Of a stretch of DNA of 64,000 nucleotides, positions 25,952-64,000 are shown piece after piece. Source of the DNA: a virus. The first letter of the stretch is position 1, and every line of letters starts with the position of its first letter. Where the stretch lies: IMG/VR virus record IMGVR_UViG_3300033181_000231; one strand, written 5' to 3'. The translations under genes were made by a program, and so were the position numbers. The notes under the pieces were generated by a model. That model worked only from the letters and a program-made list of their open reading frames with translations, was not told the DNA's origin and made no database searches.

Positions 25952-26302
25952 TCAATGGAACAGACGCCGCCGCTCTTCATCGCTGATCGGAGTCGGAACC
26001 ATCGGGCGCACTCTCTGCGATCCTGCGTTGATGGGTTGTACATCGCGCTGGCAATAGCGACACACAGACGCGGCCTCGGGGATGCGGCTTAGGCAATGGG
26101 GACATGACCGCGTCCACGCATCAGCCTGCCGGATCGTTTCGACATCGTCCAGTGGACGCAAGAGCGCCACGACAATAAACGCGAATATGCCGAATAGGAT
26201 GCCGAGCACGAGCCACCCGCCAACGTCGCGATGCTTGTTCGACGCCACGATCGGCGCCCCCACGATCCCCAAGAACCACGCGATAGCGATGAACAGTGTC
26301 AT
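25952..26302 (-). CDS. Membrane protein with C-terminal zinc ribbon (moron)
   Basis: GAGGGGG RBS. Two TMs, then 'SCPHCLSRIPEAASVCRYCQRD'. Confidence 0.75.
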   Translation of the reverse strand: MTLFIAIAWFLGIVGAPIVASNKHRDVGGWLVLGILFGIFAFIVVALLRPLDDVETIRQADAWTRSCPHCLSRIPEAASVCRYCQRDVQPINAGSQRVRPMVPTPISDEERRRLFH

Positions 26303-26365: not shown

Positions 26366-26508
26366 AGAGGGGGCGCGTTTCTGGAACGCGCCCCCTCTCC
26401 TCACCAAACGGAGCCTCTCCCCGCCGTGCCGTGCCGCGCCGGACCTGGCCTGACCATGCCTGACCACGCCAGACCCTACCCCAACGCTAGCCCACCCAAC
26501 CACCCACA
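26366..26508 (-). ncRNA. Putative guide RNA B: 19-nt leader + GGY-NN pentamer array + 3' 14-bp hairpin
   Basis: 12 consecutive perfect GGY-NN units (26480-26421) then 5 degenerate ones. Hairpin AGAGGGGGCGCGTT/AACGCGCCCCCTCT (26366-26398). Confidence 0.75.
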
Positions 26509-26511
26509 ATG

Positions 26512-27126
26512 CTAGCGCAGGGCAATACGCGTCAACCGGAACGCGCCGTGCCACCCGCCCGTCGAGGGGCGGTAGTCACCGACGCCGTGCATCTTGCCGG
26601 CCGTCTGGATGACCTTCTCAATGCTTGCCATATCGGTTAGCGACAGGTCCAAGACGTAGCGGCAGGTCATGAACCACGGCGGGTTGATCTCCGGCCGGCC
26701 GCGCTCGACGCCTGCCGTTCCCACGACGACGCGCTCCACGTTCACGCCGTAGTCGTCGATGGGCGTCCCGTTCTCATCGTGGAGAACAAACATGGTATGC
26801 ATGGCGTCGAATTGCATCGCGCCTTTGAGAATGTAGCTGTAGCGATAGCGTTGCCCCGGCGCCGGGAAGCGCGCCGCCGCGTCGATCATGCTCTTGCGCA
26901 TATGCGTTGCCGGTAGCGCAAGGTGGCCGTCCGCGTCACGGTAGACGTACTTGGGCGCCTCCTGCTCCGGCGTTGGCCGCTCCTTCTTCTTAACGATGCC
27001 CGTTTCCTGGCGCAAGTTGCCACGCCAATTGTGCATGAGAACCGACGATATGCCCTCGACCGTGAACTCCAGATCGCGCCACGCCTCGAACTCAACCTGT
27101 GGCTTCTCTACCAATGCCGTCACCAT
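26512..27126 (-). CDS. Solo Cas7/RAMP-fold protein (Vipr-like putative RNA-guided effector)
   Basis: AAGGAG RBS. 'LEFTVEGISSVLMHN', 'YRDADGHLALPATHMRKSMIDAA', 'RGRPEINPPW', C-terminal Gly-rich loop 'AGKMHGVGDYRPSTGGWHGAF'. Confidence 0.8.
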   Translation of the reverse strand: MVTALVEKPQVEFEAWRDLEFTVEGISSVLMHNWRGNLRQETGIVKKKERPTPEQEAPKYVYRDADGHLALPATHMRKSMIDAAARFPAPGQRYRYSYILKGAMQFDAMHTMFVLHDENGTPIDDYGVNVERVVVGTAGVERGRPEINPPWFMTCRYVLDLSLTDMASIEKVIQTAGKMHGVGDYRPSTGGWHGAFRLTRIALR

Positions 27127-27158
27127 CGTGCGTTACTCCTTCTTAGAAATCCCCTAGC

Positions 27159-27252
27159 AAGCCAGACCTTACCCCACCTCACCCGACCATACCTAGCCTT
27201 CTACCTGACCATGCCTCGCCTGACCGAGTCCGTGCCCGCCCAACCACCCACA
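27159..27252 (-). ncRNA. Putative guide RNA A: 19-nt leader + GGY-NN pentamer array
   Basis: 13 perfect GGY-NN units (5 + AA insertion + 8) in the intergenic region upstream of the RAMP gene. Confidence 0.7.
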
Positions 27253-27259
27253 TGCACGG

Positions 27260-27841
27260 TTACAGCACGCTATTTTTCTCCGCGATGGCGACGACCTCCT
27301 CTTCGTTAAACACTTGACCAACCGTGCTGTCCGCCGCCCCAGCGGCCATGCGGCCGGCGAGGCAATCGAAGAACCGCGCGTAGGCCGCGTTGGACCGCGT
27401 GCGATCGTAATAGGCGGTGCGTTGATAGAGAACCATGTCCCCTGTCATGTCACCCAGCGGGACCATGCCGACGCCGGGGATCATGAACCGCCAATCGCTC
27501 AGGAGGCACTGCGCCTTGCCCTGCGCGACCGACCGCACCTTCGTCTCGATGGCGATGGGGGCGTCAGGGTTCACCAGGACGGGCGCGCTGCCGGTCACAA
27601 CGGACCTGCTCTGGCGCGTCTGATGCGCGACCTTGCGCCCCAGATAGATGAAGCCTTGCAGGGTGACCGTCCCGGCGATATCGGGCAGGATGCCCCGGTC
27701 CTGGCATGCCGCCAGCGTCCGGTCGGCCGCCTCCCGGTAGCCGATCTGGCCGCTCGCAAGGAGATCGCGCAAGTGGCGCATGGCCCACGCGGTCGCCGCT
27801 GATTGGGCGTCCGCGTCGTCCGGCGGAAGGGGGTTCAACAT
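27260..27841 (-). CDS. Hypothetical protein upstream of the RAMP gene (possible accessory factor)
   Basis: AAAGGA RBS. 'VPLGDMTGDM...Y...N...ARFF..LA' C-terminal helical domain. Confidence 0.65.
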   Translation of the reverse strand: MLNPLPPDDADAQSAATAWAMRHLRDLLASGQIGYREAADRTLAACQDRGILPDIAGTVTLQGFIYLGRKVAHQTRQSRSVVTGSAPVLVNPDAPIAIETKVRSVAQGKAQCLLSDWRFMIPGVGMVPLGDMTGDMVLYQRTAYYDRTRSNAAYARFFDCLAGRMAAGAADSTVGQVFNEEEVVAIAEKNSVL

Positions 27842-27865
27842 GTGGCCTGATCCTTTCTGATTCAC

Positions 27866-29663: not shown

Positions 29664-29921
29664 ATGTTGGAGCACGAACGCGCCTATTTCGATGCGCATT
29701 TATCGGAGTGGTTACAGCACTATCCCCAACGCTTTGTTCTCGTCAAGGGCGAGGAGTTAATCGGGACGTTCGACACGCAGGACGACGCCCTACGTGAGGG
29801 CGCCCGCCGCTTTGGCCTCGCGCCCTTCCTTATTCGCCGCGTGGAAATGCAGCGGCCGGTGGCCGAGATACCCGCGCTCACTCTGGGGCTACTCCGTGCC
29901 GATTCTGCACGTTCGGCCTGA
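29664..29921 (+). CDS. DUF5678-like small protein
   Basis: AAGGAG RBS. 'YF..HL.EWL..YP.RFVLVKGEELIGTFDT..DAL..G...FG..PFLIRRV'. Confidence 0.7.
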   Translation: MLEHERAYFDAHLSEWLQHYPQRFVLVKGEELIGTFDTQDDALREGARRFGLAPFLIRRVEMQRPVAEIPALTLGLLRADSARSA

Positions 29922-30381
29922 CACCAGCGGGCAGATGCCCGATGGGACGCCCGTGCAGCTACCGCCGCCTGTCGCGTTCCAGATGCGCGGGCCGTGCCTC
30001 CAGGTGACGATCAATCTGAGCGCGAGCGTTGCGGCCCAATTGGTGCAGCAGGGCGTGGCTGTCCCCGCGCCCATGTCGGGGACGGCGCTGATCGACACAG
30101 GGGCGTCGTTAACCTGTATTGATGACGTGGCGGCGCAACGTCTGGGGTTGTCGGTGATCGATGTCGTCAGCATCGCGTCCGCGTCGCACGCGTCCACGCA
30201 GCAGAACGTCTATGCGACGCTCATCGAGATCACGGGGACGGCCATCAGCATCAACGCCGACCGCGCGATCGGGGCCGCGCTACATGCCCAAGGACTCATC
30301 GCCCTAATCGGCCGTGATGTCCTGATGATGACGACGATCTTCTATAACGGGGTTACCGGCGAGTTTACCTTATCCGTCTAG
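29896..30381 (+). CDS. Retropepsin-like (clan AA) aspartyl protease
   Basis: 'ALIDTGASLTCID' and 'ALIGRDVL' signature motifs. Confidence 0.85.
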   Translation: MPILHVRPDTSGQMPDGTPVQLPPPVAFQMRGPCLQVTINLSASVAAQLVQQGVAVPAPMSGTALIDTGASLTCIDDVAAQRLGLSVIDVVSIASASHASTQQNVYATLIEITGTAISINADRAIGAALHAQGLIALIGRDVLMMTTIFYNGVTGEFTLSV

Positions 30382-54546: not shown

Positions 54547-55851
54547 GTGCCTGTCCTTCTCGATGGCGCGCGCCCGAGCGCCGCGCTGGGCGAATCGCCC
54601 GATAGCGCCAACCTGTCGGCGTTTGCCGCGCCCGCGCCCGCCGCCGGGACATTCACCGCGACGGGCGGTTTCGCGGGCGCGGGCGTCGTCTCCGTCGCCG
54701 CTGTCACGGGCGCGGCCCTGTTCGCCGCCGGGACCTTCCTCGCGGCGGCCGGGACCGTGGGCGCTCCGAGCGTGCCGGGGGCCGGGATGTTCGGCGGCGC
54801 GTGTACGCTCGGAGCGTCGCCCGTCGTCGGCGCCTCCCCCGTCACGGGTGGCGGCGCGTTCAGCGGGTCCGCGGTCGTCGCGGGCGGCGGCGCGTCGGGC
54901 GTCGCCCCGGTCGCGGGACAGGGTGTGTTCGTCGGGGCGACCACACTCAACGCCACCACCGCGTCGGGCGTCGCCACGGTCGCGGGCGCGGGCGCGTTCG
55001 TCGGGGCGACCACTCTCGCGCAGGGGGCGATCACGGGCATCCCCCCGGTCGCGGGCGCGGGCGCGTTTGCCGCCGCCGTGCCGTTTGTCGGCCCTGGGAC
55101 GGCGGGCGCGGTTGGGGTGTCGGCGGGCGGCCTCTTCGCGCTCACGACGGGACTTGCGGGCGCGGGCGTCGTTGCCGCGGCTCCGTCAACCAGCGGGGCC
55201 GCCACGGGAGCGGGGGCGTTCAGCGCGCTCGCCGCGCTCAGTGGGACGGGGCAAGTGGGCGTCGGCACCGTCACGGGCGGGGCGTCCTTCCTTGTCTACA
55301 CGGCAACGGTTGGGGCCGGGACCATTGGCCCAACGGGCGCGCTGGCCGGCCCCTCCTCGGTCGGCGCGTTCGACACCCTGATCCAGTTCGGTGGCACGGG
55401 CGTCGTGGGCGCGCCGCCCATCCTGACCGAGATCGTAGCCGCCTACGCCCTCACCCTCTCGCCGGAGGTCGGCCCCGCCGTGGCGCTGGCCCCGCCCGCC
55501 ATCGCCCCCGACGCCGCGGGCGTGGGCCTCTCGCTGCGCCTGGACGCCCTTCCGGTGGGCGCCACGGTCGTCCCCCTCGCCGCCAGCGCTGTCGTCCTGA
55601 CGCTGGACGCCGCATCACTCGCGCCGGTCCCCGCGCCGGGCTTCATCGTCACACCGGTCCCCGTGCTCGTCACGGACAGCGGAGGGACGCTGGGGACGCG
55701 CCTCGTCGTCACGCTCGGCAACGGGGCGCAATCGGACGGCGCGGCGTACCTCGTCCACCTCACGTTCAGCGTCGGCGGTTCAACGTTGGGCGTCACGCTG
55801 GGCGTCCCCTGCACGACCGAGGCCGGCGACGGCCCCGCCTACTATGCCTAA
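54547..55851 (+). CDS. Gly/Ala-rich repetitive virion protein
   Basis: Repeats of 'VAG.GAF.GATTL'. Follows the tail-fiber-type gene. Confidence 0.6.
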   Translation: MPVLLDGARPSAALGESPDSANLSAFAAPAPAAGTFTATGGFAGAGVVSVAAVTGAALFAAGTFLAAAGTVGAPSVPGAGMFGGACTLGASPVVGASPVTGGGAFSGSAVVAGGGASGVAPVAGQGVFVGATTLNATTASGVATVAGAGAFVGATTLAQGAITGIPPVAGAGAFAAAVPFVGPGTAGAVGVSAGGLFALTTGLAGAGVVAAAPSTSGAATGAGAFSALAALSGTGQVGVGTVTGGASFLVYTATVGAGTIGPTGALAGPSSVGAFDTLIQFGGTGVVGAPPILTEIVAAYALTLSPEVGPAVALAPPAIAPDAAGVGLSLRLDALPVGATVVPLAASAVVLTLDAASLAPVPAPGFIVTPVPVLVTDSGGTLGTRLVVTLGNGAQSDGAAYLVHLTFSVGGSTLGVTLGVPCTTEAGDGPAYYA

Positions 55852-62974: not shown

Positions 62975-63376
62975 ATGCCTACCCTGCCGCTCCCACCGAC
63001 GCCCCCTGATCCCTTCGCCGCCGCCGCGCGTCTGCTGGCCGCGCACACCGACCGCATCACGGCGCTGGAAGAGCGTGTCAGGGCGCTAGAAGCCGAGCGC
63101 GGTCCCACCCTCGACGACTTCCGACCCATGACGACGCGCGAGGCGGCCGACCTACTGCGCGTCTCCCCCACCTTCGTCCTTACCCTCATCGAGCGCGGCG
63201 TCCTCGCGCGCGTTCCTTTTATGGGGTCACGCGTCCTGATCCCCCGCCAGAGCGTCGTGCGCCTCGTCACGGAGCAATCCACCCCTGACGACCTCGCCGC
63301 TGTAGACAGCCGCTCAGACGCTCCCAACGACGCCGTAGACGCCGTAGACGCCGATCTAGAGAGCGATGGCGGGTAG
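62975..63376 (+). CDS. Excisionase (HTH_17)
   Basis: 'MTTREAADLLRVSPTFVLTLIERGVL...RVLIPRQSV'. Directly upstream of the integrase. Confidence 0.8.
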   Translation: MPTLPLPPTPPDPFAAAARLLAAHTDRITALEERVRALEAERGPTLDDFRPMTTREAADLLRVSPTFVLTLIERGVLARVPFMGSRVLIPRQSVVRLVTEQSTPDDLAAVDSRSDAPNDAVDAVDADLESDGG

Positions 63377-63378
63377 GG

Positions 63379-64000
63379 ATGGCGACAGGTTCTATTCGGC
63401 GCAAGGTGGTCGACACGACGAAGGCAGTGCGCTACGAGGTCGTCGTTGACCTTGGCCCCGACCCCGCGACGGGCAAGCGCCGGCAACGCTCGCGCACGTT
63501 TCCGACCAAGAAGGAAGCGCAGCGCGGCCTGGCGGCGTGGCTGGTAGAGCACCACGTCCGGCCGCAGTCCCACACCACCTACGCGCGCCACGTCCGCCTG
63601 CACATCGTGCCCCGCCTAGGGGCACTGCCCGTCCACAAGTTGACGGCGCCCATCCTCCAGGCCACGTACTCGGCCATGCTCACCGACGGCATGCGCCCGG
63701 TCATGGTGCGCATCTGCCACCGTCAGATCAAGGCGGCGCTGGCGCGCGCGGTGCGCCTGGGTCTCCTGCCGCGCAACGCGGCCGATGCCGTGCGCCCCCC
63801 GCGCGTCCTCCGGTCGCGTATGGTCGCGTGGAGCGCCGACGAGGCCCGGCGCTTCCTGCTCTCGGCGGAGGTGGCGGCCGAACCCGACTACCCGCTCTAC
63901 GCGCTGGCGCTGGGGACCGGCCTGCGGCGCGGCGAACTGCTTGGCCTGATGTGGTCGGACATCGACTGGGGCGATGCCGTGGACCGCGCGGGCGTGCGTA
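63379..64000 (+). CDS. int: Tyrosine recombinase/integrase, 3'-truncated by the window (not in the ORF track)
   Basis: MATGSIRRK...GPDPATGKRRQRSRTFPTKKEAQ (arm-binding), 'HIVPRLG', 'LYALALGTGLRRGELLGL.WSDID'. Confidence 0.95.
   Translation, partial: MATGSIRRKVVDTTKAVRYEVVVDLGPDPATGKRRQRSRTFPTKKEAQRGLAAWLVEHHVRPQSHTTYARHVRLHIVPRLGALPVHKLTAPILQATYSAMLTDGMRPVMVRICHRQIKAALARAVRLGLLPRNAADAVRPPRVLRSRMVAWSADEARRFLLSAEVAAEPDYPLYALALGTGLRRGELLGLMWSDIDWGDAVDRAGVR

What the first reader, a model, noticed from the sequence alone, without database searches (positions are those of the whole stretch)
26366..27252. Candidate RNA-guided system with a gapped code: solo Cas7/RAMP gene flanked by two GGY-NN pentamer arrays (VIPR-like)
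Seen: the 204-aa minus-strand protein has RAMP/Cas7 hallmarks (first beta strand 'FTVEGISSVLMH', 'LPATHMRKSM' at the Cas7 IPGSSxKG position, C-terminal 'GVGDYRP..GGWHGAF' Gly-loop). No cas1/2/3/5/6 and no CRISPR array are in the window. Both intergenic flanks are strict 5-nt-period arrays with invariant GGY and variable NN: 13 units upstream, 12 perfect plus 5 degenerate downstream. They share a 19-nt leader, and the downstream one ends in a 14-bp hairpin. Knowledge: Cas7-like proteins polymerise along guide RNAs with fixed periodicity. The layout matches what I recall being reported recently as phage VIPR systems (Vipr protein + GGY/NN RNAs; NN pairs with target, every third target base skipped); verify that report. 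Inference: the protein coats the RNA, binds each GGY and displays NN to recognise a competing phage's DNA.
Basis: partly seen in the sequence, partly recalled or inferred. Interest (0 to 1): 0.95.

Follow-up and report, generated by a model that had tools for sequence, protein, structure and literature searches.

The report
Prophage VIPR RNA-guided silencing system
This is a real member of the VIPR family, the phage RNA-guided DNA-silencing systems first reported in 2026 preprints: one Cas7-like protein gene flanked by two guide RNAs made of GGY-NN pentamers, so the kind is already known, but this clade has a guide-RNA 5' cap and an accessory gene that the text I could read does not describe.

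Summary
The only GGY-NN runs of 4 or more units in the 64 kb, on either strand, are the three blocks flanking the 204-aa gene. All lie on its strand: 5+8 units upstream, split by a 2-nt AA insertion, and 12 perfect plus about 5 degenerate units downstream.

The protein folds confidently (pLDDT 94) as a minimal RAMP. Its best AlphaFold-cluster matches are the UniProt entries that the VIPR discovery preprint names as its seeds. A profile of its family hits the experimentally characterised SUSP1 Vipr at 1e-22 in the phage record and 5e-20 in PDB. The SUSP1 residues that hold the GGY bases are conserved here (H32, R144, D184, Y185, R186).

Ten of the eleven relatives' loci examined carry same-strand GGY-NN arrays with different NN, and the eleventh carries GGA-NN. 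In addition, 91 of 119 viral loci fetched by an array pattern alone encode this protein family.

The kind is therefore known; this is a new member in a rock-metagenome prophage. Two features are clade-specific. Each array begins with a covarying stem closing an invariant G-rich loop, a possible G-quadruplex. A fold-unknown 201-aa gene is conserved directly upstream. No natural target and no expression data were found.

The parts
26512..27126 (-). vipr gene: 204-aa minimal RAMP (Vipr) protein. Predicted GGY-binding residues are H32, R144 (thumb) and D184-Y185-R186 (G-loop, GVGDYRP).
   Evidence: AF2 pLDDT 94.3. Top AFDB-cluster hits are X1U2U4, A0A0F9A1L0, A0A661D0E2 and A0A1F4YLN4, which are VIPR seeds named in the discovery paper. 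PDB fold hits are Csm3/Cas7. The family profile hits SUSP1 Vipr at 1.3e-22 and PDB '36pp_D, SUSP1 Vipr protein' at 5e-20. It matches phrog_4652 at 1.6e-14.
27230..27259 (-). 5' stem-loop of the upstream vrRNA. The stem is CCGTGC/GCACGG and it closes the loop ATGT-GGGTGGTTGGGCGGG, a G-rich motif and possible G-quadruplex.
   Evidence: The motif is invariant in 7 instances from 3 loci, while the stem sequences differ but stay complementary.
27159..27225 (-). Upstream vrRNA repeat tract. Five GGY-NN units (NN = CA GA AT CA AG), then AA, then eight units (NN = TA AT CG GA GG AA CT TT).
26484..26518 (-). 5' stem-loop of the downstream vrRNA. The stem is GCGCTAGC/GCTAGCGT and includes the vipr stop codon. 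It closes the loop ATTGT-GGGTGGTTGGGTGGG.
26396..26480 (-). Downstream vrRNA repeat tract. Twelve perfect GGY-NN units (NN = AG CT GT CA AT CA CA CC GC AC AC GG) are followed by five degenerate units.
26366..26398 (-). 14-bp GC-rich hairpin at the end of the downstream vrRNA. It is a probable transcription terminator and/or 3' cap.
27260..27865 (-). Candidate accessory (vap-like) gene of 201 aa, conserved directly upstream of the arrays and vipr. Its fold and function are unknown.
   Evidence: It is syntenic in L004 (about 61% identity), L005 (about 32%) and L112 (22%, E 0.002). It has no Pfam, PHROG or PADLOC match. AF2 gives pLDDT 66 and there are no fold hits. It is unrelated to SUSP1 vap1.

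Best explanation
The locus is a VIPR (Viral Interference Programmable Repeat) system carried by an integrated temperate phage.

The two G-rich intergenic tracts would be transcribed with the vipr operon as vrRNAs. Vipr protomers would polymerise along each vrRNA, one per pentamer. Each protomer would hold the two guanines and the pyrimidine of a GGY in protein pockets: H32 and D184 for G1, R144 and Y185 for G2, R186 for Y3. The variable NN dinucleotides would be left exposed. The NN string would then pair with double-stranded DNA that reads NNxNNxNN, skipping one target base per unit, and the bound filament would block transcription of the target.

By analogy with characterised systems, the target is probably a gene of a competing mobile element: another phage, a prophage or a satellite.

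Shown here: the arrays, the fold, the homology, the conserved contact residues and the array-protein association. Inferred from the homologues: RNA production, filament assembly, the 1-nt-skip rule and silencing.

My own inference for this clade: a covarying stem closing an invariant G-rich loop marks or caps the 5' end of each vrRNA, and the conserved upstream 201-aa gene is the accessory factor.
For: Arrays: they are unique in the window and far beyond chance.

Fold: a confident RAMP model. Its nearest structures are the published VIPR seed proteins, with TM 0.76/0.86 to X1U2U4, ahead of Csm3/Cas7.

Homology: profile matches to the experimentally characterised and structurally solved SUSP1 Vipr, a pairwise G-loop match GVGDYRP vs GVGDWRP, and SUSP1 H17/R138/D177/W178/R179 aligning to H32/R144/D184/Y185/R186, positions conserved across 82 family members.

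Relatives: the related loci L003-L006, L017-L019, L110, L111 and L113 have same-strand GGY-NN arrays with different NN next to the gene, and L112 has GGA-NN arrays.

Independent association test: 91 of 119 viral loci fetched only by a GGY-NN pattern encode a family member. The nearest array is on the gene's strand in 92 of 93 cases, at a median gap of 16 nt. None of 48 control loci has one.

Context: phage or provirus, with terminase, portal, capsid, integrase and excisionase genes.

No self-target: the best own-genome match is 17/24, at the shuffled-guide level, as the paper reports for natural systems.
Against: No natural target was found. Full-length exact searches of viral and metagenome collections gave nothing. 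Tiled searches gave at best 21-22 of 24 NN positions, which is about what chance predicts for databases of that size.

There is no RNA evidence: only DNA runs from rock metagenomes hold the locus.

The upstream array has a 2-nt insertion whose effect on filament register is unknown.

The layout differs from the characterised type II loci. The conserved element is 5' of the tract rather than a 3' pseudoknot tail, and the accessory gene is upstream and unrelated to vap1.
Confidence: 0.88

Rival explanations
1. It is a VIPR-derived locus that no longer guides anything: a decaying or re-purposed copy whose protein or arrays are inactive, or that serves only the prophage's own regulation.
For: The upstream array is interrupted by a 2-nt insertion and the downstream array ends in degenerate units. 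The closest relative, L004, has strongly degenerate arrays. No target was found.
Against: All GGY-contact residues and the invariant family positions are intact. The 12-unit downstream array is perfect. The paper reports internal degeneracy as common in functional vrRNAs. No self or host-flank match exceeds shuffled guides, which argues against self-regulation.
Confidence: 0.07
2. It is an orphan CRISPR-type Cas7/Csm3 gene, and the G-rich pentamer tracts are unrelated DNA-level repeats, for example protein-binding or G-quadruplex-forming regulatory DNA.
For: PDB fold hits are Csm3/Cas7 of type III and VII complexes. The leader is predicted to form a G-quadruplex.
Against: The VIPR seed proteins match much better than any Cas7 (8e-14 against about 5e-6). 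There is no Pfam RAMP, Cas1 or CRISPR repeat in the record. Arrays track this protein family across unrelated phages, always on the gene's strand.
Confidence: 0.03

Closest known systems
VIPR systems, type II, of Escherichia phage SUSP1 and the Pseudomonas fulva prophage (bioRxiv 10.64898/2026.04.26.720920, 10.64898/2026.04.26.720927, 10.64898/2026.10.15.759431)
   Same: It shares a single minimal RAMP protein of about 200 aa with the same G-loop (GVGD[W/Y]RP) and thumb arginine. GGY-NN vrRNA arrays of 12-13 units lie on both sides of vipr on the same strand. NN is hypervariable, the carrier is a phage, and there is no self-targeting.
   Different: Protein identity is only about 17% in the alignment used (35 identical positions). 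The conserved RNA element is a 5' stem with a G-rich loop, not the 3' pseudoknot tail. There is no vap1 downstream; instead an unrelated 201-aa gene lies upstream. One array carries a 2-nt insertion. The host is a high-GC bacterium from rock, and the targets are unknown.
Cas7-family RAMPs of class 1 CRISPR effectors (Csm3/Cmr4, type VII Cas7)
   Same: It has the RRM core, glycine-rich loop and thumb hairpin, and it polymerises along a guide RNA with a fixed period and flipped bases (fold hits; mechanism from the cited papers).
   Different: There is no CRISPR array, no other cas genes and no adaptation module. The period is 5 nt with three sequestered bases rather than 6 nt with one. The Pfam RAMP model does not match.
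Uncharacterised Vipr homologues in actinobacteriophages (Mycobacterium phage Saal gp51 and relatives, Gordonia phage Trine gp41) and Phage DSL-LC04
   Same: They belong to the same protein family (tblastn 25-30% identity) and have adjacent same-strand GGC-NN or GGY-NN arrays.
   Different: They are annotated as hypothetical proteins, or as an HTH regulator in DSL-LC04. Their array flanks are different, and they lack both the G-rich leader and the upstream 201-aa gene.

Membership tests
VIPR system | The Vipr protein has a minimal RAMP fold: RRM core, glycine-rich loop and thumb. | tested here: met
   The AF2 model has pLDDT 94.3, a beta-hairpin at 127-147 and a G-loop at 181-194. Foldseek places it nearest X1U2U4 (8e-14, TM 0.76/0.86) and three more of the five published seeds, with the fifth at rank 8. 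PDB hits are Csm3/Cas7.
VIPR system | The protein is homologous in sequence to an experimentally characterised Vipr. | tested here: met
   The family profile A1 hits the SUSP1 vipr gene at 1.3e-22 and the PDB chain '36pp_D, SUSP1 Vipr protein' at 5e-20. Pairwise BLASTP gives 6e-6 over the thumb and G-loop.
VIPR system | The residues that bind the GGY bases in the SUSP1 cryo-EM structure (H17, R138, D177, W178, R179) are present. | tested here: met
   They align to H32, R144, D184, Y185 and R186. Family conservation is R 82/82, D 72/82, aromatic 82/82 and R 79/82.
VIPR system | Tandem YNNGG/GGYNN repeats of at least 4 units lie next to vipr on its strand. | tested here: met
   There are blocks of 5+8 and 12 units, the only such runs in the window. 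The null maximum is 5 units.
VIPR system | GGY is conserved while NN is hypervariable among relatives. | tested here: met
   L004 (84% identical protein) keeps the leader but has different tracts. Nine further loci have different NN strings.
VIPR system | The locus is minimal and non-CRISPR, and it sits in a virus or provirus. | tested here: met
   The record is an IMG/VR provirus with terminase, portal, capsid and integrase genes. It has no Cas1, Pfam RAMP or CRISPR repeats.
VIPR system | An accessory vap gene lies in the operon. | tested here: inconclusive
   A 201-aa gene is conserved directly upstream in four loci. It is unrelated to SUSP1 vap1 and no fold could be assigned. The sequences of vap2-6 were not available to me.
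VIPR system | vrRNAs are expressed and co-purify with Vipr. | not testable with these tools
   Only DNA runs from rock metagenomes hold this sequence.
VIPR system | Natural targets match under the 1-nt-skip rule at 80% or more of NN positions, with no self-target. | tested here: inconclusive
   No self-target was found: 17/24, equal to shuffled guides. External matches reach 21-22/24, but in numbers expected by chance.
VIPR type II (SUSP1 / P. fulva clades) | vap1 lies downstream of vipr, and an invariable structured 3' tail (a pseudoknot in SUSP1) follows the repeat tract. | tested here: not met
   No gene lies between vipr and the downstream array. The conserved element is 5' of each tract. 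The type cannot be assigned, because the paper's type tables and figures are not held.
Class 1 CRISPR-Cas Cas7 | The gene is associated with a CRISPR array and other cas genes, and it matches curated RAMP models. | tested here: not met

The most novel reading that the evidence does not exclude
This sub-clade (the window, L004, L112 and more loosely L005) may be a VIPR architecture not yet described. Each vrRNA would be capped at its 5' end by a covarying stem closing an invariant G-rich loop, GGGYGGWTGGGNGGG, possibly an RNA G-quadruplex. This cap would take the place of the 3' pseudoknot tail of type II as the nucleation or end-defining element. A new, fold-unknown upstream protein would serve as the accessory factor. 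The 2-nt insertion in one guide would then show how much register slippage a Vipr filament tolerates.
Probability: 0.3. Interest if true: 0.6.

Novelty: new member of a known kind. Interest (0 to 1): 0.45.

Why it matters
VIPR is a months-old discovery, a gapped RNA-guided DNA-recognition code proposed to predate CRISPR, and only E. coli and Pseudomonas type II systems have been studied at the bench.

This locus adds a compact, high-GC, prophage-borne example about 17% identical to SUSP1 Vipr that still keeps every GGY-contact residue. That supports the generality of the recognition mechanism.

Three features are testable handles on open questions. The 5' G-rich stem-loop bears on how vrRNA ends are defined and how filament assembly starts. 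The conserved accessory gene of unknown fold bears on what accessory proteins add. The interrupted guide bears on how strictly the 5-nt register is needed.

It also shows that phrog_4652 and many 'hypothetical' actinobacteriophage genes are Vipr proteins.

Tried and rejected
Target searches under the 1-nt-skip rule
- Own provirus, 8.8 kb of host flank and a related element: best 17/24, 14/24 and 16/24, no better than shuffled guides.
- Relatives' VIPR loci: at null level.
- Viral contigs: the full 12-unit guide gave 0 hits. The 8-unit upstream guide gave 10 exact hits, all in low-GC contigs, with no match for the preceding five units. Two 8-unit tiles of the downstream guide gave a best of 21/24, where about one such hit is expected by chance.
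- Metagenome contigs: the full guide gave 0 hits. A 9-unit tile gave a best of 22/24, in a SPOR-domain gene.
- Genome contigs: a 9-unit tile found a recurrent perfect match to units 2-11 in an FtsK/EccC-like gene of Actinomycetota MAGs. The skipped base falls on codon position 1, and the number of such hits is what chance predicts.

Accessory gene
- No Pfam, PHROG or PADLOC match. The AF2 model is poor (pLDDT 66). There are no Foldseek hits in PDB or BFVD and no usable Atlas hit. A DEP-domain match at E 0.24 was dismissed as insignificant.

RNA elements
- No Rfam family and no hammerhead ribozyme in the intergenic regions. One STnc250 match fell below its threshold and was dismissed.
- No sigma-70-type promoter was predicted.

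Wider search for the leader
- The leader-plus-array pattern gave 0 hits in IMG/VR. A looser pattern fetched ordinary VIPR arrays without the leader.

Locus fetching and host
- The search for related loci failed with diverse alignments. With the close alignment it found one viral locus and no genomic locus.
- The host phylum could not be settled from a flanking amylase gene.

Not run
- Complex prediction, because I make no claim that two particular proteins bind.

Full report
**Observation.**
Read on the minus strand, the 204-aa ORF (26512-27126, AAGGAG ribosome-binding site at 27141-27136) is flanked by two G-rich intergenic regions built of GGY-NN pentamers.
- Upstream there are five units (27225-27201), an extra AA, then eight units (27198-27159).
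- Downstream there are twelve perfect units (26480-26421), then about five degenerate units that run into a 14-bp GC-rich hairpin (26366-26398).
- A scan of both strands of the whole window for runs of four or more GGYNN units returns only these three blocks.
- In 200 first-order Markov simulations the longest run averaged 2.6 units and never exceeded 5.
- A looser caller applied to the whole 64.6-kb record finds nothing comparable elsewhere.

The one correction is that the upstream array is interrupted by 2 nt.

**What is known.**
- The discovery preprint (10.64898/2026.04.26.720920) defines VIPR as a minimal RAMP protein (Vipr) plus vrRNAs of 9-16 YNNGG repeats. The NN dinucleotides pair with DNA while one target base per unit is skipped. 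The loci are mostly in phages and prophages, there are seven types, and there are accessory vap genes.
- The structural preprint (10.64898/2026.04.26.720927) shows one protomer per repeat and names the SUSP1 residues that hold G1 (H17, D177), G2 (R138, W178) and Y3 (R179).
- A third preprint (10.64898/2026.10.15.759431) shows that SUSP1 uses VIPR to silence a satellite's recombinase.
- A fourth (10.64898/2026.10.21.760802) recovers VIPR arrays by their 5-nt periodicity and reports non-canonical repeat units.

**The protein.**
- It has no Pfam or PADLOC match, but it matches phrog_4652, a family of unknown function, at 1.6e-14.
- An exhaustive HMMER search finds 879 representative clusters at E of 0.001 or better.
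- With an 82-sequence alignment (A1), AlphaFold2 gives a confident model (pLDDT 94.3, pTM 0.87). It has a beta-alpha-beta core, a long beta-hairpin at 127-147 and a C-terminal glycine-rich loop.
- Against AlphaFold-DB clusters the four best hits are X1U2U4 (8e-14, TM 0.76/0.86), A0A0F9A1L0, A0A661D0E2 and A0A1F4YLN4, and A0A2D6XG06 ranks eighth. These are the five entries that the discovery paper lists as its VIPR seeds.
- Against PDB the best hits are Csm3/Cas7 subunits of type III and type VII complexes, at about 1e-5 to 1e-6.
- The A1 profile finds exactly one gene in the SUSP1 genome (1.3e-22). It is the annotated 195-aa protein whose numbering fits the published H17 and D177-W178-R179.
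- The same profile finds one PDB sequence, '36pp_D, SUSP1 Vipr protein' (5e-20).
- In an alignment with SUSP1, the GGY-contact residues map to H32, R144, D184, Y185 and R186 and are conserved across the family.

Membership of the Vipr family is therefore established by fold, by profile homology and by functional residues.

**The arrays in relatives.**
- Eleven related loci were examined.
- Ten carry same-strand GGY-NN arrays next to the gene, with different NN strings:
  - L004, 84% identical protein
  - L005, 47%
  - L110, 39%
  - L111, 38%
  - L113, 36%
  - L006, an IMG/VR contig at 26%
  - Phage DSL-LC04
  - Mycobacterium phage Saal
  - Gordonia phage Trine
  - SUSP1
- The eleventh, L112 (33%), has the same layout but with GGA-NN units.
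- As a test independent of the papers, I fetched 119 viral loci using only a DNA pattern of a short G-motif followed by five GGY-NN units.
- Of these, 91 encode a protein matching profile A1 at 1e-5 or better. The nearest array lies on the gene's strand in 92 of 93 cases, at a median distance of 16 nt. None of 48 viral loci fetched with unrelated patterns has such a protein.

**Context.**
- The window is almost the whole of a 64,596-bp IMG/VR provirus record, with CheckV completeness 72%.
- It encodes a large terminase, a portal and a major capsid protein.
- An HTH_17 excisionase-like gene and a tyrosine integrase lie at the right end, followed by host genes on a 77-kb contig.
- The DNA is held by rock-metagenome runs only, and no RNA run holds it.
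- The VIPR operon lies on the strand opposite the structural genes, between two blocks of them.

**Clade-specific features.**

*The 5' leader.*
- The shared leader is not just a shared string. In the two arrays here, the two in L004 and the three in L112, an invariant motif GGG[C/T]GG[A/T]TGGGNGGG is enclosed by a 5-9 bp stem.
- The stem sequence differs between instances but stays complementary. The seven stems are CCGTGC/GCACGG, GCGCTAGC/GCTAGCGT, GTCCGTGC/GCATGGAT, TAACCTAGC/GCTAGGTTA, CTCAT/GTGAG, ATCTCTCT/GGAGAGAT and TTCTGGC/GCCAGGA.
- Each stem beats most shuffles of its own flank (per-instance fractions 0.012-0.14). The instances are not all independent, because the window and L004 are orthologous.
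- With G-quadruplex folding enabled, ViennaRNA places a quadruplex in the loop of all seven. This is a prediction only.
- The element always sits 5' of a tract, and the first one directly follows the stop codon of the upstream gene. In SUSP1 the conserved structure is instead a 3' tail.
- The pattern is absent from IMG/VR, so this sub-clade is rare in that collection.

*The upstream gene.*
- A 201-aa gene (27260-27865) lies directly upstream of the arrays and vipr, here and in L004, L005 and more weakly L112.
- It has no family or fold assignment and is unrelated to SUSP1 vap1.
- I read it as the accessory gene of this clade, at about even odds.

**Targets.**
Using the published rule (NN joined by one wildcard, both strands), I found no self-target and no convincing external target.
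- Self: the best own-genome match equals shuffled guides. This agrees with the paper's finding that natural systems do not self-target.
- External: the best hits are 22/24 in a SPOR-domain gene, 21/24 in two viral contigs, and a perfect match to units 2-11 in an EccC-like gene of Actinomycetota MAGs. Their numbers are what database size predicts.
- The collection scans accept exact patterns only, so a true target with scattered mismatches could have been missed.

**Mechanism and confidence.**
That the locus is a VIPR system: 0.88. The steps from RNA production to silencing are inferred from the SUSP1 and P. fulva work, not shown here. The rivals, a decayed or self-regulatory copy and an orphan Cas7 with unrelated repeats, are unlikely for the reasons given in their entries.

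**Novelty and score.**
The kind is already described, so this is a new member of a known kind, in a divergent sub-clade. I cannot assign its type (I-VII), because the type tables and figures are not held. For the same reason I cannot exclude that the 5' element or the upstream gene is already covered by one of the published types. Interest is 0.45: it is a clean, well-supported example of a very recent discovery with a few new testable details, but not a new principle.

Noticed in passing
L112:2596-3000 (Logan contig, Vipr homologue P0007, 33% identical): Three tandem arrays lie upstream of vipr. Their units are GGA-NN, with a purine at position 3 instead of the canonical pyrimidine. Each array is preceded by the same G-rich stem-loop leader, and two of them end in GGAGCGGTGCACTTAT. 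This suggests a Vipr whose third-base pocket accepts A.
   Followed up: partly
L019:3131-3190 (Gordonia phage Trine), L018:2101-2347 (Mycobacterium phage Saal), L017:2146-2383 (Phage DSL-LC04): Isolated phages carry Vipr homologues annotated as hypothetical proteins, or as an 'HTH transcriptional regulator' in DSL-LC04, with unannotated GGC-NN or GGY-NN arrays beside them. In Trine the 12-unit array lies inside annotated CDS gp40. In Saal the array overlaps the annotated start of gp51. Both are probable mis-annotations.
   Followed up: partly
window 26512-27126; PHROGs: phrog_4652, labelled 'unknown function', matches over its full length (1.6e-14). It therefore appears to be a Vipr family and could be renamed.
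   Followed up: no
window 62975-64000 and L234:10001-20402: The right end of the provirus has an HTH_17 excisionase-like gene and a tyrosine integrase that is cut by the window end. Host genes follow: alpha-amylase, a methyltransferase, a formate/nitrite transporter and an SDR. The phage is temperate and integrated. The host phylum is unresolved, with Actinomycetota the commonest among look-alikes.
   Followed up: partly
L236:1-8100 (JGI contig): A contig shares this prophage's left arm: the identical 124-aa protein, the regulators and the terminase. There the arm lies next to type IV secretion coupling and TraG-like genes, so it is a relative with a different neighbourhood.
   Followed up: no
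window 25952-26302 (-): A small protein with an N-terminal membrane segment and a C-terminal zinc ribbon (UPF0547/DZR, below threshold) lies just downstream of the VIPR terminator. It has its own TTGACA-type promoter-like sequence.
   Followed up: no
window 29794-30381 (+): A 195-aa ORF with a retropepsin-like aspartyl protease domain (Asp_protease_2, 3.5e-5) lies in the same accessory island, next to two small HTH-like ORFs.
   Followed up: no
window about 54977-55068 (+): A 22-nt GC-rich direct repeat (CGGTCGCGGGCGCGGGCGCGTT) occurs twice, 69 nt apart.
   Followed up: no
L092:3192-3217, L101, L069-L073: Units 2-11 of the downstream guide match perfectly (20 of 20 NN bases) to a conserved site in an FtsK/EccC-like ATPase gene of Actinomycetota bog MAGs. 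I judged it chance: the expected number of such hits is about 1-3, and the skipped base falls on codon position 1. It is recorded in case the host proves to be an actinobacterium.
   Followed up: partly
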